64,000 nucleotides of DNA. Origin: a phage. Of this stretch, positions 26,744 to 31,569 are shown piece after piece. The translations under genes and the position numbers were made by a program. The notes under the pieces were generated by a model. The model saw nothing but the letters and a program-made list of their open reading frames with translations. It did not search any database and was not told the DNA's origin. The stretch lies in sequence record PX104380.1; one strand, written 5' to 3'. Position 1 is the first letter of the stretch; each line of letters begins with the position of its first letter.

Positions 26744-26983
26744 TTAAACTCTCGTATTATGATCGATAATTTCATCAAGAAACATATCTAACGCTTCTAT
26801 AGCATTATCCACTTTAGTTTCAAAGTCTTTAATGCCTTTATTCGAAATACCCGATGAATACCAAGCAAAGTCAATCAGCTCTTCATCTGCTTTGCGAATT
26901 GAAGCCACTAATTCCTTGATTTTATCTGCTTGCTCTACGCTAATCATTATTCCACCACATATGACAGAGAGAATATTGCACAC
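26744..26983 (-). CDS. small helical protein (79 aa), small paralog family
   Basis: [12 protein letters not shown]...ALDMFLDEI pattern. Confidence 0.45.
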
Positions 26984-27203: not shown

Positions 27204-27226
27204 AAAAAAGTCTCCCGAAGGAGACT
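27204..27226 (-). terminator. rho-independent terminator (UUCG-loop hairpin + U-run)
   Basis: agtctcc-cgaa-ggagact stem, followed on minus transcript by UUUUUUCAU. Confidence 0.7.
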
Positions 27227-28757: not shown

Positions 28758-28946
28758 TTAGTCCTTAGTTAAATTTTCTAAATATGTTTCTAAATCATTT
28801 TCAGCTTTATCGATAGATTTTACTAATTCGTAATATGTTTCGGCATCTCCATATTCAGAAGATATTTCAAAAGACAAATCCTTTTCTAAACTAATAATTT
28901 CACCAACTAAAAATAATATTTCGTTCTTTTGTTCGCGAGTAATCAT
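28758..28946 (-). CDS. small helical protein (62 aa), small paralog family
   Basis: TREQKNEILFLVGEI...YLENL. Confidence 0.45.
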   Translation of the reverse strand: MITREQKNEILFLVGEIISLEKDLSFEISSEYGDAETYYELVKSIDKAENDLETYLENLTKD

Positions 28947-29128
28947 AAGGAATTTATATAATCAATGAGTTCTTGTTCTTTATTATCAAATTCTTTGGAA
29001 AGTTCTTCATATTCATTTGCGCTAAAAGGACCGCATTCATTACAAACTTTTTCCAATTCACTATTTTTATCCATAATTTCGTGGATAAGAGAAAAGAGTT
29101 TGTCTTTTTGTTCTTTGCTTAGGCTCAT
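28943..29128 (-). CDS. small helical protein (61 aa), small paralog family
   Basis: SKEQKDKLFSLIHEI...LIDYINSL. Confidence 0.45.
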   Translation of the reverse strand: MSLSKEQKDKLFSLIHEIMDKNSELEKVCNECGPFSANEYEELSKEFDNKEQELIDYINSL

Positions 29129-29294
29129 ATATTAATTTCCAGAAGTTTTAAAATAATTCGCTTTTGCTTAAATATTTCCACAGTTAAATGATCAGTATCT
29201 TTTTGACCAATTCCAATGGCAAAACCTTTATTAACAGCGAGTTCAATTAAATTATCAAGTTCACGTAACACTTCATATTGTAACTCAGAACTAT

Positions 29295-29501
29295 TCATTT
29301 CGGTTTACCTTCTTTAACGAAATCTGGATAAGGATAAAATCCCGAATAAAATCCTTCACCTTTATGATTGATGCATCCTTTATTAGAACAATAGCACCAA
29401 TAATCGAAATCACAAGCCATTTCATCGTTACATAAAGCAAAAACAACCGGCCACTTACACTTTTCACAGTGGGCATTTTTAAGAATACTAGTTTGGCTCA
29501 T
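29295..29501 (-). CDS. small cysteine-rich protein (about 68 aa; start uncertain)
   Basis: Eight Cys in CEKCKW...CNDEMACDFDYWCYCSNKGC. Confidence 0.4.
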   Translation of the reverse strand: MSQTSILKNAHCEKCKWPVVFALCNDEMACDFDYWCYCSNKGCINHKGEGFYSGFYPYPDFVKEGKPK

Positions 29502-29710
29502 AACCATGTAACCTTTAAGCAATATTCTTCTACATGTTGTTTACGACCTTTCTTATCAATAAAGGTATATTCAACGAATGTTCCAATGTAGTCTTTATCT
29601 ACATCATGTGGACTATTAATTGGGCATTTAGTACGGCAAATGCGTTCCCATTGACGAATAATTACTGCTTTGTTTTTAGGATCAAACGGATGTGGGTAAT
29701 GTACTTTCAT
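29498..29710 (-). CDS. hypothetical small protein (70 aa)
   Basis: Minus-strand ORF. Confidence 0.45.
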   Translation of the reverse strand: MKVHYPHPFDPKNKAVIIRQWERICRTKCPINSPHDVDKDYIGTFVEYTFIDKKGRKQHVEEYCLKVTWL

Positions 29711-30161
29711 AATCCACCACTATTAAATCAATATCAGGAGTAAACATGTCGATTAATTTAGAAACCTTATCCCAATCGCCGCCAGCAATACCACAACCTA
29801 TACGTGGAATGTAAATTACTGGTTTAAACAAAAGGGTTTCTGCCTGTAGATTTAATTCTATCATGCAGTTTACTAAAGCACCATAATCAAGATTAGGACC
29901 TGGTTCGTATTGCGTATACAAGTTATAACATATGCCAAACCCATTAGGTTTATGTTTAAAAACAATAGACATATCGCCTAATTTATCACGAGAACCGTAC
30001 TCAGTAGTGGTTTTATCTATTTCTAAAATTTTGGGATAGGCTCTTGCTAATTGACCAGCTACACCACTGCCCATTGTATGAAAACAGTTACACCCGTGCG
30101 CAATAATATTACCTTCAAGAAAGAGGGCGACAATATCGCCCTTGATATATTTTACAATCAT
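29682..30161 (-). CDS. macro-domain (ADP-ribose binding/processing) protein, 159 aa
   Basis: IVALFLEGNIIAHGCNCFHTMGSGVAGQLARAYP resembles the macro-domain glycine-rich ADP-ribose binding region. Confidence 0.55.
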   Translation of the reverse strand: MIVKYIKGDIVALFLEGNIIAHGCNCFHTMGSGVAGQLARAYPKILEIDKTTTEYGSRDKLGDMSIVFKHKPNGFGICYNLYTQYEPGPNLDYGALVNCMIELNLQAETLLFKPVIYIPRIGCGIAGGDWDKVSKLIDMFTPDIDLIVVDYESTLPTSV

Positions 30162-30505
30162 CTAGTACTCAATCCTCGATTATAAGAATCTACTAAACGG
30201 TCAACCATTGAATGACAAGCGGCTTTATCTTTTTCCTCCGCAACTGAACATTCTAGGGTATTCCACTTTTTAGCATATCGTTTTAATAATGTATCGTTTT
30301 TGTATCTGCTTGATTTATCTCTTTCTCCGTCTTTATATGCATATATTAATTTCTGCGCAAATTCAGCTTGGCATGCTTTATTTTTCCCGCAATAATCTGC
30401 CGCAGTGCGGTTCACATACTCCCTAATTTCAGTATATGATGTATCTGCTGACGCATAAGCAGAAAATGAAATTAATCCTATACATAAAACCAAAATTTTA
30501 GTCAT
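30158..30505 (-). CDS. secreted cysteine-containing protein (115 aa, signal peptide)
   Basis: N-terminal MTKILVLCIGLISFSAYASA signal sequence; four Cys. Confidence 0.5.
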   Translation of the reverse strand: MTKILVLCIGLISFSAYASADTSYTEIREYVNRTAADYCGKNKACQAEFAQKLIYAYKDGERDKSSRYKNDTLLKRYAKKWNTLECSVAEEKDKAACHSMVDRLVDSYNRGLSTR

Positions 30506-31043
30506 TTACTATTTCCAAAAGTTTATTATTTTTAAGGTAATTAGCCTTTTCTAGGACTTCAGAAGCATATTTAGAACCTGCTTTAACATTCCATCCCGAA
30601 TTATAAGAGGATATTGCTTTTCTTATATCGCCCTTATGTATATTTAACCAATAAGAAAGTTCAATGTACGCCCAGGAAGCTGAATTGGATCGTTTATTCA
30701 ACATTCTTTTTATTTCAGCATCGGTCATATTATAACCAAGTTCCTTAACTCTCGCTCGCATAGTAGGCAAATAATTTTGGAACATTCCGTAAGCATGATG
30801 TTTTGGTTTAGATTTTAAATTAACTCCGCCAGAGCTTTCTTGCCATAAAATAGCAGCCATTATATGACCTAATCCGCTCTTGTGGATATTTTTGTGTGTT
30901 TTATATTTTCCATCCTTAGAAAATTGTTCCCCGAATTGATACGCGTAACGCATGTTATCGAGTTGGACATTACTGAAAGTATGCTCGGAGCTATGTGCCA
31001 TCATTGAAATGGCCAATAGACCAGCGAGTAGTGCTTTTCTCAT
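30498..31043 (-). CDS. secreted lytic-transglycosylase-like (SLT domain) protein, 181 aa
   Basis: Signal peptide MRKALLAGLLAISMMAHS; ILWQESSGG ... YGMFQ resembles SLT catalytic region. Confidence 0.5.
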   Translation of the reverse strand: MRKALLAGLLAISMMAHSSEHTFSNVQLDNMRYAYQFGEQFSKDGKYKTHKNIHKSGLGHIMAAILWQESSGGVNLKSKPKHHAYGMFQNYLPTMRARVKELGYNMTDAEIKRMLNKRSNSASWAYIELSYWLNIHKGDIRKAISSYNSGWNVKAGSKYASEVLEKANYLKNNKLLEIVND

Positions 31044-31539: not shown

Positions 31540-31569
31540 ATTATACCACAGTCAAGAGGAAAAGTAAAC
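31540..31569 (-). promoter_or_regulatory. T4 early-type promoter upstream of regB
   Basis: Minus-strand GTTTACTTTTCCTCTTGACTGTGGTATAAT. Confidence 0.6.

What the first reader, a model, noticed from the sequence alone, without database searches (positions are those of the whole stretch)
29682..30161. Macro-domain protein among early genes
The glycine-rich block IVALFLEGNIIAHGCNCFHTMGSGVAGQLARAYP resembles the ADP-ribose binding region of macro domains. T-even phages ADP-ribosylate host proteins (Alt, ModA, ModB, encoded elsewhere), and hosts use ADP-ribosylation and NAD-derived signals in defence. A phage macro domain could reverse ADP-ribosylation, as against DarT-type toxins, or hydrolyse ADP-ribose-derived signals.
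Basis: partly seen in the sequence, partly recalled or inferred. Interest (0 to 1): 0.55.

Follow-up and report, generated by a model that had tools for sequence, protein, structure and literature searches.

The report
T4 tk.4/AdfM macrodomain, anti-DarT2 gene

Summary
The ORF is real: 29682..30161 on the minus strand, 159 aa. It is 100% identical in DNA to a gene of Escherichia phage vB_EcoM_G4507 annotated "macro domain protein". It sits between vs and tk.3, so it is the positional ortholog of T4 tk.4 (58% aa identity).

It passes the Pfam Macro threshold. The AlphaFold2 model is confident (pLDDT 94.5). Its best solved-structure matches are TARG1, BT1257, Poa1p and the DarG macrodomains, not MacroD/Af1521.

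A 2025 preprint showed genetically that T4 tk.4 (named adfM) is the only T4 gene needed to grow on DarTG2-expressing E. coli.

At the position of the catalytic lysine of DarG and TARG1, this family has an invariant glutamine (Q84). Streptomyces SCO6735 has the same glutamine, still cleaves thymidine-linked ADP-ribose from DNA, and requires it.

Most likely function (0.75): removal of the ADP-ribose that DarT2 puts on phage DNA. Neither T4 AdfM nor this allele has been tested biochemically.

Minor new points:
- The gene body is a sharply bounded divergent allele in a backbone about 97% identical to T4.
- PhiKZ "AdfM" belongs to a different, lysine-type macro subfamily.

Verdict: already known, low interest.

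The parts
29682..30161 (-). CDS, 159 aa: ortholog of T4 tk.4 / adfM (macro-domain protein). Its ATG overlaps the vs stop codon (ATGA), and its 3' end overlaps the start of the tk.3 homolog by 29 nt.
   Evidence: ORF list and sequence. 100% nt identity to MK327946 'macro domain protein'. 58% aa identity to T4 Tk.4 with the same neighbours. Pfam Macro. AF2 model and Foldseek.
30057..30098 (-). Loop 1 of the macro domain, residues H22-A35 (HGCNCFHTMGSGVA). Contains N25 (= SCO6735 N27, PhiKZ gp104 N23), H22 (= SCO6735 H24, Poa1p H23), and G31 and G33.
   Evidence: MAFFT alignment A2. H22, G23, N25, C26, G33 and A35 are invariant in 118 homologs. Mutational data for the equivalent residues are in PMC9411070 and PMC13309987.
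29910..29924 (-). N80-L-Y-T-Q84. Q84 occupies the column of the catalytic Lys of TARG1 (K84), DarG (K80) and PhiKZ gp104, and of the essential Gln85 of SCO6735.
   Evidence: Alignments. The codon was checked in the sequence (ttg at 29910-29912 = CAA on the minus strand). Q84, N80 and Y82 are invariant in 118/118 homologs.
29772..29807 (-). Phosphate-binding loop 2, residues P119-W130 (PRIGCGIAGGDW). Near-identical to SCO6735 PRIGCGLAGGTW and BT1257 PRIGCGLAGGKW. TARG1 D125 corresponds to A126 here.
29697..30078 (.). Divergence island relative to T4: 52-67% nt identity, against 95-100% in the flanks and 90% in the first ~80 nt of the gene. An allelic cassette of tk.4.
   Evidence: blastn of the window against T4 with 100-nt identity bins. 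Allele classes from tblastn.
31540..31568 (-). Best sigma-70-like promoter match (TTTACT-17-TATAAT with TG) upstream of regB. Candidate start of the regB-vs.1-vs-tk.4 transcript.
   Evidence: This is a pattern match only; the number of such sites in the region is not above the shuffled expectation.
27209..27226 (-). Hairpin plus T-run terminator downstream of rI.-1. First strong terminator downstream of tk.4 on its strand.
   Evidence: Annotated as a putative terminator in MK327946.

Best explanation
The gene encodes a free-standing, single-domain macrodomain enzyme of the ALC1-like (TARG1/DarG/SCO6735) class. It is the ortholog of T4 Tk.4 = AdfM. During infection of a host carrying the DarTG2 toxin-antitoxin defence, the DarT2 toxin ADP-ribosylates thymidines in single-stranded phage DNA and blocks replication. 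This protein most likely binds the ADP-ribose through its two glycine-rich loops and hydrolyses the thymine-N3-ribose bond, restoring unmodified DNA. In effect it is an orphan, phage-borne copy of the antitoxin's catalytic domain. Catalysis is predicted to follow the SCO6735 route: Q84, held in place by N25, positions the distal ribose, and a water molecule does the chemistry. It would not follow the lysine route of DarG/TARG1. Shown here: the ORF, macro fold, class, residue equivalences, and orthology and synteny with T4 tk.4. Shown by others: the T4 tk.4 knockout is DarTG2-sensitive, and Gln-type SCO6735 cleaves dT-ADPr DNA. Inferred: that this 58%-identical allele does the same, and that it acts enzymatically.
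For: Identity and orthology:
- 100% nt match to G4507 'macro domain protein'.
- Same position as T4 tk.4 (vs | tk.4 | tk.3) and 58% aa identity over the full length.
- The same synteny is found in a Dhakavirus.

Fold:
- Pfam Macro is above the cut-off.
- AF2 pLDDT is 94.5.
- Foldseek top hits are TARG1 (E 6e-10, TM 0.72-0.82), BT1257, Poa1p, and Taq and Mtb DarG macrodomains.
- A profile search against PDB sequences gives the same set.
- The DarG model is the only PADLOC hit and the best NCBIfam hit.

Residues:
- Q84 aligns with SCO6735 Q85, N25 with N27, H22 with H24, and G122/G124 with G126/G128.
- All of these are invariant in 118 homologs spanning 39-96% identity.

Function, from the literature:
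- T4 tk.4 was the sole HIDEN-SEQ hit on a DarTG2 host, and the deletion mutant is DarTG2-sensitive (10.1101/2025.11.20.689424).
- T4 lacking adfA and adfN is still DarTG2-resistant, so another factor was expected (PMC11257639).
- SCO6735 cleaves thymidine-ADPr DNA; Q85A is dead and N27S nearly dead (PMC9411070).
- An equally acidic phage macrodomain, PhiKZ gp104, removes DarT2-made ADPr from DNA in vitro (PMC13309987).
Against: - No biochemical assay exists for T4 Tk.4 or for this allele. The T4 evidence is genetic and comes from a preprint.
- This allele is only 58% identical to the tested T4 protein.
- The DarG/TARG1 catalytic Lys is absent, as is TARG1 D125.
- The two SCO6735 lysines that position DNA (K34, K89) are not conserved; here they are S32 and a Pro/Gly loop.
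- The protein is acidic, with net charge about -5.
- Scores to the DarG models are far below the family cut-off: 27.8 bits against 250.
- The sequence is about as close to Poa1p, a small-molecule ADP-ribose-1''-phosphate phosphatase, as to DarG.
Confidence: 0.75

Rival explanations
1. It counters DarT2 mainly without catalysis, by binding the toxin (interaction-inhibition) or by sequestering ADP-ribosylated DNA. The macro fold would serve as a binding module.
For: Catalytically dead SCO6735 Q85A, DarG K80A and TARG1 K84A still inhibit DarT in vitro, with SCO6735 the strongest (PMC9411070). The gene body is a sharply bounded, highly diverged allele in an otherwise ~97% identical backbone, with at least three allele classes. 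That pattern is expected if a protein-protein interface is under arms-race selection.
Against: All active-site residues (H22, N25, Q84, both Gly loops) are invariant across 118 homologs down to 39% identity, which argues for retained catalysis. The protein has no equivalent of the DarG C-terminal DarT-binding domain; it is 159 aa and matches only model positions 2-142 of 338. The two modes are not mutually exclusive.
Confidence: 0.1
2. It is a small-molecule ADP-ribose-derivative hydrolase, which is what the database label 'phosphatase' means. It would be an ADP-ribose-1''-phosphate phosphatase or O-acetyl-ADP-ribose deacetylase like yeast Poa1p, cleaning up by-products of RNA repair or sirtuin reactions. 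The DarTG2 phenotype would be secondary.
For: T4 tk.4 is annotated 'phosphatase; contains A1pp phosphatase motif' and PHROG 335 is labelled 'phosphatase'. Poa1p is among the best sequence and structure matches. Window H22 aligns with Poa1p H23, a residue that the depositors mutated (6lfs, 'H23A'). A comparative-genomics review argued that phage Macro domains may prefer soluble ADPr derivatives (PMC9503650).
Against: The only phenotype known for the T4 ortholog is specific to DarTG2, which modifies DNA. The residue aligned with Poa1p S30 (T29) is not conserved in the family, at 70/118. The match to Poa1p is good only in the N-terminal half. The phosphate-binding loop is of the SCO6735/BT1257 type.
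Confidence: 0.08
3. It erases ADP-ribose from proteins or RNA rather than DNA. Examples are tuning the phage's own Alt/ModA/ModB modifications or RNAylation, or reversing host ADP-ribosyltransferase toxins acting on RNA (uracil-ADPr).
For: SCO6735 and TARG1 also act on Glu/Asp-linked protein ADPr and on uracil-ADPr in RNA (PMC9411070, PMC13036486). T-even phages encode three ADP-ribosyltransferases; this is established knowledge, and the genes are not in the region examined.
Against: The gene was non-essential in T4 on plain K-12 and became important only with DarTG2. No data link it to Alt or Mod. The CmdTAC paper is described by its own abstract as robust defence against T-even phages by an mRNA ADP-ribosyltransferase, and it mentions macrodomains only in its reference list. 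So the T4 macrodomain evidently does not rescue that case. These activities could exist as side activities.
Confidence: 0.05
4. It degrades NAD-derived immune signals such as the Thoeris cyclic ADPR isomers, as the first reader also suggested.
For: Only general: some Macro domains in TIR systems are predicted to act on cADPR (PMC9503650).
Against: No sequence or structural match to known anti-Thoeris proteins came up in any search. The known phenotype is DarTG2-specific.
Confidence: 0.02

Closest known systems
T4 Tk.4 = AdfM (anti-DarT factor Macrodomain), bioRxiv 10.1101/2025.11.20.689424
   Same: Same genomic slot between vs and tk.3. Same length class (155 against 159 aa) and colinear 58% identity. 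The same invariant residues are present, including H22, N25, Q84, P119, G122, G124 and W130.
   Different: 42% of residues differ, inside a sharply bounded replacement cassette. The phosphate-binding loop reads GCGIAGG here and GAGIGKG in T4. This allele has never been tested.
Streptomyces coelicolor SCO6735 (PDB 5e3b) and Bacteroides BT1257 (2afc/2fg1): Gln-type ALC1-like macrodomains
   Same: Best sequence-level structural relatives (E 3e-20 with the family profile). They share Gln in place of the catalytic Lys, the His-x-x-Asn motif and the PRIGCG[IL]AGGxW loop. SCO6735 cleaves dT-ADPr DNA and protects against DarT.
   Different: Only 26-27% identity. The DNA-positioning lysines K34 and K89 of SCO6735 are absent. 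The phage protein is acidic (pI 5.1 against 9.5). It has family-specific invariant residues D49, N80 and Y82. SCO6735 is a cellular, DNA-damage-regulated protein, not a phage counter-defence.
DarG antitoxin of DarTG2 (macrodomains 5m31, 5m3i; full length 7omu)
   Same: Same fold and class (TM 0.72-0.76). Same presumed substrate, thymine-linked ADPr on ssDNA. Conserved Asn in loop 1.
   Different: Catalytic K80 is replaced by Q84. There is no C-terminal DarT-binding domain and no adjacent darT. The score is 27.8 bits against a 250-bit family cut-off.
PhiKZ gp104, also named AdfM (PMC13309987)
   Same: A phage-encoded orphan macrodomain that neutralises DarT2. It is acidic and single-domain.
   Different: A different subfamily. 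It is DarG-like with the catalytic Lys (E 9e-25 to Mtb DarG; 133 bits to the PADLOC DarG model) and shows only marginal BLASTP similarity to the window protein. The two 'AdfM' proteins are analogous recruitments of different macro lineages.
Human TARG1 / OARD1 (4j5r)
   Same: Top Foldseek hit, and it also removes thymine-linked ADPr.
   Different: The K84/D125 catalytic dyad is not conserved; here these positions are Q84 and A126.
Yeast Poa1p (6lfq-6lfu), ADP-ribose-1''-phosphate phosphatase
   Same: Similar N-terminal half, including H23 = H22 and the CNC motif. This is the source of the 'phosphatase/A1pp' label.
   Different: The S30 equivalent is not conserved in the phage family. The C-terminal half is poorly alignable. 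Its substrate is a small molecule.

Membership tests
Macro domain superfamily (Pfam PF01661) | Profile match above the curated gathering score | tested here: met
   33.1 bits against a cut-off of 22, E 6.2e-8, profile positions 2-117 of 118.
Macro domain superfamily (Pfam PF01661) | Three-layer alpha/beta/alpha macro fold | tested here: met
   AF2 pLDDT 94.5, pTM 0.89. 177 PDB chains match at E<=0.001; the 50 best listed are macrodomains or enzymes designed on macrodomain scaffolds.
Macro domain superfamily (Pfam PF01661) | Two glycine-rich ADP-ribose/diphosphate-binding loops | tested here: met
   G31-x-G33 and G122-x-G124...G127-G128. G33, G122 and G124 are invariant or near-invariant in 118 homologs, and G31 and G33 are invariant across all eight reference macrodomains.
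T4 Tk.4 / AdfM orthologous group | Same genomic position (between vs and tk.3, downstream of regB-vs.1) | tested here: met
   Window ORF map against the NC_000866 annotation. The flanks are 95-100% identical to T4.
T4 Tk.4 / AdfM orthologous group | Full-length colinear homology | tested here: met
   58% identity, 74% positives, no gaps over 155 aa, E 4e-70. PHROG 335 at E 1.6e-71.
T4 Tk.4 / AdfM orthologous group | Confers resistance to DarTG2 | not testable with these tools
   Shown only for T4 itself.
SCO6735-type (Gln) ALC1-like macrodomain DNA ADP-ribosylhydrolases | Gln at the position of the TARG1/DarG catalytic Lys (SCO6735 Q85, essential) | tested here: met
   Q84 is in the same alignment column and is invariant in 118/118 homologs. 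Mutational data are in PMC9411070.
SCO6735-type (Gln) ALC1-like macrodomain DNA ADP-ribosylhydrolases | Asn27 and His24 in loop 1; Gly126 and Gly128 in the phosphate-binding loop | tested here: met
   N25, H22, G122 and G124.
SCO6735-type (Gln) ALC1-like macrodomain DNA ADP-ribosylhydrolases | DNA-positioning lysines K34 and K89 | tested here: not met
   Aligned residues are S32 and the E86-P-G-P89 loop. The protein has a net negative charge.
SCO6735-type (Gln) ALC1-like macrodomain DNA ADP-ribosylhydrolases | Hydrolysis of thymidine-linked ADP-ribose on ssDNA | not testable with these tools
   Needs an enzyme assay.
DarG antitoxin (DarTG2) | Catalytic lysine (K80) in the macrodomain | tested here: not met
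   Q84 in that column.
DarG antitoxin (DarTG2) | C-terminal DarT-binding domain; family-level HMM score | tested here: not met
   159 aa. It matches only positions 2-142 of the 338-position NCBIfam DarG model, at 27.8 bits against a cut-off of 250. PADLOC DarG gives 27.7 bits.
DarG antitoxin (DarTG2) | Encoded next to a darT toxin gene | tested here: not met
   The neighbours are vs and tk.3. A bacterial homolog in Pelagimonas is also an orphan.
TARG1 | Lys84/Asp125 catalytic dyad | tested here: not met
   Q84 and A126.
Poa1p-type ADP-ribose-1''-phosphate phosphatase | His23 and Ser30, the two residues mutated by the depositors of the solved structures | tested here: inconclusive
   H22 is present and invariant. 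The S30 equivalent is T29 here but is conserved in only 70/118 family members. Only the N-terminal half aligns well.
   ALC1-like members fill the top 25 Foldseek ranks. Viral Mac1-type macrodomains follow with TM 0.59-0.67 and 13-17% identity. The NCBIfam O-acetyl-ADP-ribose deacetylase model gives 16.7 bits against a cut-off of 291.

The most novel reading that the evidence does not exclude
The tk.4/adfM locus of Tequatroviruses is an allelic cassette under arms-race diversification. There are at least three classes, and this one is 58% identical to T4's, dropped into a ~97% identical backbone. The alleles may differ in which DarT2 variants they neutralise, or in which ADP-ribosylated substrates they act on, possibly through direct toxin binding as well as catalysis. 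A related point is that T-even 'AdfM' uses a lysine-free, glutamine-based mechanism, unlike DarG and PhiKZ AdfM. That would make it the first phage example of the SCO6735-type chemistry.
Probability: 0.2. Interest if true: 0.45.

Novelty: already known. Interest (0 to 1): 0.15.

Why it matters
The finding adds little beyond what is known. The gene is annotated as a macro domain in the identical GenBank record, has carried an 'A1pp' label in T4 for many years, and was assigned an anti-DarTG2 role in T4 in 2025.

What remains open and testable is modest:
- The enzymology of the T-even protein, which lacks the DarG/TARG1 lysine and should work like SCO6735.
- Whether the strongly diverged alleles circulating in otherwise near-identical T4-like phages have different specificities.

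That matters to people predicting phage host range against DarTG-carrying strains, but it is incremental.

Tried and rejected
1. The missing catalytic lysine. I suspected that its absence (Q84) ruled out DNA de-ADP-ribosylation. I rejected this after reconstructing the SCO6735 sequence from PDB alignments, aligning it, and reading that SCO6735 Q85 is essential for dT-ADPr cleavage.

2. Acidic charge. I tested whether the protein's acidity argues against a DNA substrate. I rejected this because PhiKZ gp104 is just as acidic and is active on DNA in vitro.

3. Bacterial context. I looked for a darT neighbour next to a bacterial homolog (Pelagimonas). It is an orphan among unrelated genes, so this was uninformative.

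4. Promoter and terminator scan. Promoter-like sites are not enriched over shuffles, so 'early gene' could not be confirmed from sequence.

5. CmdTAC paper. It mentions macrodomains only in its references, so nothing bears on this gene.

6. Aravind-lab NAD/ADPr survey. It gives general statistics on phage Macro domains and no statement specific to tk.4.

Full report
**1. The observation**

The window carries an ATG-to-stop ORF of 159 codons at exactly 29682..30161, on the minus strand.
- Its ATG overlaps the stop codon of the upstream gene (ATGA).
- Its last 29 nt overlap the start of the next ORF.

The resemblance to macro domains is statistically solid.
- Pfam Macro (PF01661) scores 33.1 bits against a gathering cut-off of 22 (E 6.2e-8) and covers almost the whole profile.
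- phmmer against all PDB sequences returns macrodomains: BT1257 2e-10, yeast Poa1p 2e-9, SCO6735 9e-8, Mtb DarG macrodomain 1.4e-5, TARG1 0.009.
- A profile of 62 homologs raises these to 3e-20 (BT1257), 8e-17 (TARG1), 9e-16 (SCO6735) and 6e-12 (Mtb DarG).

**2. Where it comes from**

The 480 nt are 100% identical to Escherichia phage vB_EcoM_G4507 (Tequatrovirus), where the CDS is already annotated "macro domain protein". RefSeq copies of the same gene in related phages call it "phosphatase".

The neighbours on the same strand are regB, vs.1, vs, then this gene, then tk.3, several small ORFs and tk. In T4 (NC_000866) the gene in that slot is tk.4, 155 aa, "phosphatase; contains A1pp phosphatase motif".

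The two proteins align end to end without gaps at 58% identity. The same synteny holds in a Dhakavirus. So this is the tk.4 ortholog.

**3. Fold and class**

AlphaFold2 with the 62-sequence alignment gives a confident model (mean pLDDT 94.5, pTM 0.89) with the alternating strand/helix pattern of a macro domain.

Foldseek against the PDB ranks the matches as follows:
- First, TARG1 (E 6e-10, TM 0.72-0.82), BT1257, Poa1p, and the Thermus and Mycobacterium DarG macrodomains.
- Then ALC1.
- Behind these, the MacroD-like viral macrodomains, with TM 0.59-0.67.

The DarG model is the only PADLOC hit and the best NCBIfam hit. However, it scores about 28 bits against a cut-off of 250 and covers only the macro part of the model. 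This is a distant relative of the DarG macrodomain, not a DarG.

**4. What is already known about the function**

A full-text search found a preprint (HIDEN-SEQ, bioRxiv 10.1101/2025.11.20.689424, Nov 2025).
- A saturating transposon library of T4 was grown on E. coli expressing DarTG2, and tk.4 was the single significant hit.
- A clean tk.4 deletion made T4 sensitive to DarTG2.
- The authors named the gene adfM and proposed that it removes ADP-ribose from DNA.

This fits earlier work showing that T4 lacking both adfA and adfN is still DarTG2-resistant (PMC11257639).

No biochemical assay of the T4 protein was found. The window allele itself is untested.

**5. Catalytic residues**

I recovered the sequences of TARG1, both DarG macrodomains, BT1257 and SCO6735 from the printed PDB alignments, took PhiKZ gp104 from its paper, and aligned all of them with the window and T4 proteins.

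| Position in window protein | Equivalent residues |
|---|---|
| Q84 (also Q in T4 Tk.4 and BT1257) | TARG1 K84, DarG K80, PhiKZ gp104 Lys, SCO6735 Q85 |
| A126 | TARG1 D125 |
| N25 | SCO6735 N27, PhiKZ N23 |
| H22 | SCO6735 H24, Poa1p H23 |
| PRIGCGIAGGDW | SCO6735 PRIGCGLAGGTW |

This is not a loss of function. SCO6735 cleaves thymidine-linked ADP-ribose from DNA and protects Streptomyces from DarT. Its Q85A mutant is dead and N27S nearly dead, and a water-mediated mechanism has been proposed (PMC9411070).

In 118 homologs spanning 39-96% identity, the following are invariant: H22, G23, N25, C26, G33, A35, Q84, P119 and W130. G122 and G124 are conserved in 117 of 118, the one exception being a gap.

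Two things differ from SCO6735.
- Its DNA-positioning lysines K34 and K89 are not conserved.
- The phage protein is acidic, with pI 5.1. PhiKZ gp104 is equally acidic and is active on ADP-ribosylated DNA in vitro, so charge is not an argument against a DNA substrate.

**6. Best explanation and rivals**

The most likely function (0.75) is an orphan, antitoxin-like DNA ADP-ribosylglycohydrolase. It would strip DarT2-made ADP-ribose from thymidines of phage DNA, using the glutamine-type chemistry of SCO6735.

The rivals are:
- Mainly non-catalytic inhibition of DarT2. This has precedent, because dead SCO6735, DarG and TARG1 mutants still inhibit DarT.
- A small-molecule Appr1p/OAADPr hydrolase, as the "phosphatase" label implies. 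Poa1p is similar mainly in the N-terminal half, and the Poa1p S30 equivalent is not conserved.
- Erasure of protein or RNA ADP-ribosylation. SCO6735 and TARG1 also act on such substrates.
- Hydrolysis of Thoeris-type signals, which has no support.

**7. Two small points that are not in the literature I could search**

First, the two phage proteins called AdfM are not the same family.
- PhiKZ gp104 (PMC13309987) is a close DarG relative with the catalytic lysine: E 9e-25 to Mtb DarG and 133 bits to the PADLOC DarG model.
- It shows only marginal BLASTP similarity to the window protein.

Second, the gene is a divergence island.
- Against T4 the flanks are 95-100% identical and the first ~80 nt of the gene are 90% identical.
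- Positions 29697-30078 are only 52-67% identical.
- tblastn against 50,697 phage records finds 319 with the window-type allele (>=90% aa), 224 with the T4 type (>=90% aa), and 159 with a third class about 84% identical to T4.

Cassette-like allelic replacement at a counter-defence gene is typical of T-even mosaicism and hints at diversifying selection. I could not test whether specificity differs between alleles.

**8. Distribution**

Homologs occur in 2,774 of 50,697 phage records. These include Straboviridae infecting many genera, Felixounavirus-size genomes, Pseudomonas PaP1-like phages and others. They are variously annotated phosphatase, macro domain or Poa1p-like. Homologs also occur as orphan genes in bacteria. 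The family is common.

**9. Verdict**

The feature is already known: annotated as a macro domain, with a function assigned in T4. Interest is low. What is left is the enzymology of a lysine-free phage macrodomain and possible allele-specific specificity.

Noticed in passing
window 29697-30078 (within tk.4): Sharply bounded divergence island relative to T4: 52-67% nt identity inside, 95-100% outside, and 90% in the first ~80 nt of the gene. At least three tk.4 allele classes circulate among Tequatroviruses.
   Followed up: partly
window 29130-29496: A 367-bp insertion relative to T4 between tk.2 and tk.3, carrying two small ORFs. 29125..29298 (57 aa) is PHROG 3452. 29295..29522 (75 aa from TTG, or 68 aa from the annotated ATG) is Cys-rich and PHROG 2306. 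Both are of unknown function.
   Followed up: partly
window 30124-30142: A perfect 8-bp GC-rich hairpin (AGGGCGAT-ATT-GTCGCCCT) lies inside the 5' end of the tk.4 coding region (codons ~7-13) and is called terminator-like on both strands. It lies in the part of the gene that stays 90% identical to T4. It could be chance or a regulatory RNA structure.
   Followed up: no
window 28758-29128: tk.1 and tk.2 (62 and 61 aa) both match PHROG 653 over their full length, so they are tandem paralogs.
   Followed up: no
window 30498-31043 (vs.1): The 181-aa Vs.1 homolog has an N-terminal hydrophobic, signal-like segment. It gives weak PHROG hits to lytic tail protein and endolysin families over residues ~56-158, suggesting a periplasmic glycosidase/transglycosylase-like domain.
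   Followed up: no
window 26808-26907: Another short patch of low identity to T4 (63%, 21 gap columns) in an otherwise 92-100% identical stretch, in the mobD.x small-ORF region.
   Followed up: no
tk.4 protein residues D49, N80, Y82, W130 (window 30015-30017, 29922-29924, 29916-29918, 29772-29774): D49, N80 and Y82 are invariant in all 118 phage-type homologs, but none is conserved across the reference macrodomains: D49 and Y82 are missing from SCO6735, BT1257, TARG1 and DarG, and N80 from TARG1. They may mark a family-specific feature of the active site or substrate groove. W130 is also invariant in the family but is shared by SCO6735, BT1257, TARG1 and the DarG macrodomains, so it is not family-specific.
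   Followed up: no
literature / PhiKZ gp104 versus T4 Tk.4: The name AdfM has been given independently to two phage macrodomains from different subfamilies: PhiKZ gp104 is DarG-like and Lys-type, while T4 Tk.4 is SCO6735-like and Gln-type. This could mislead annotation transfer.
   Followed up: yes
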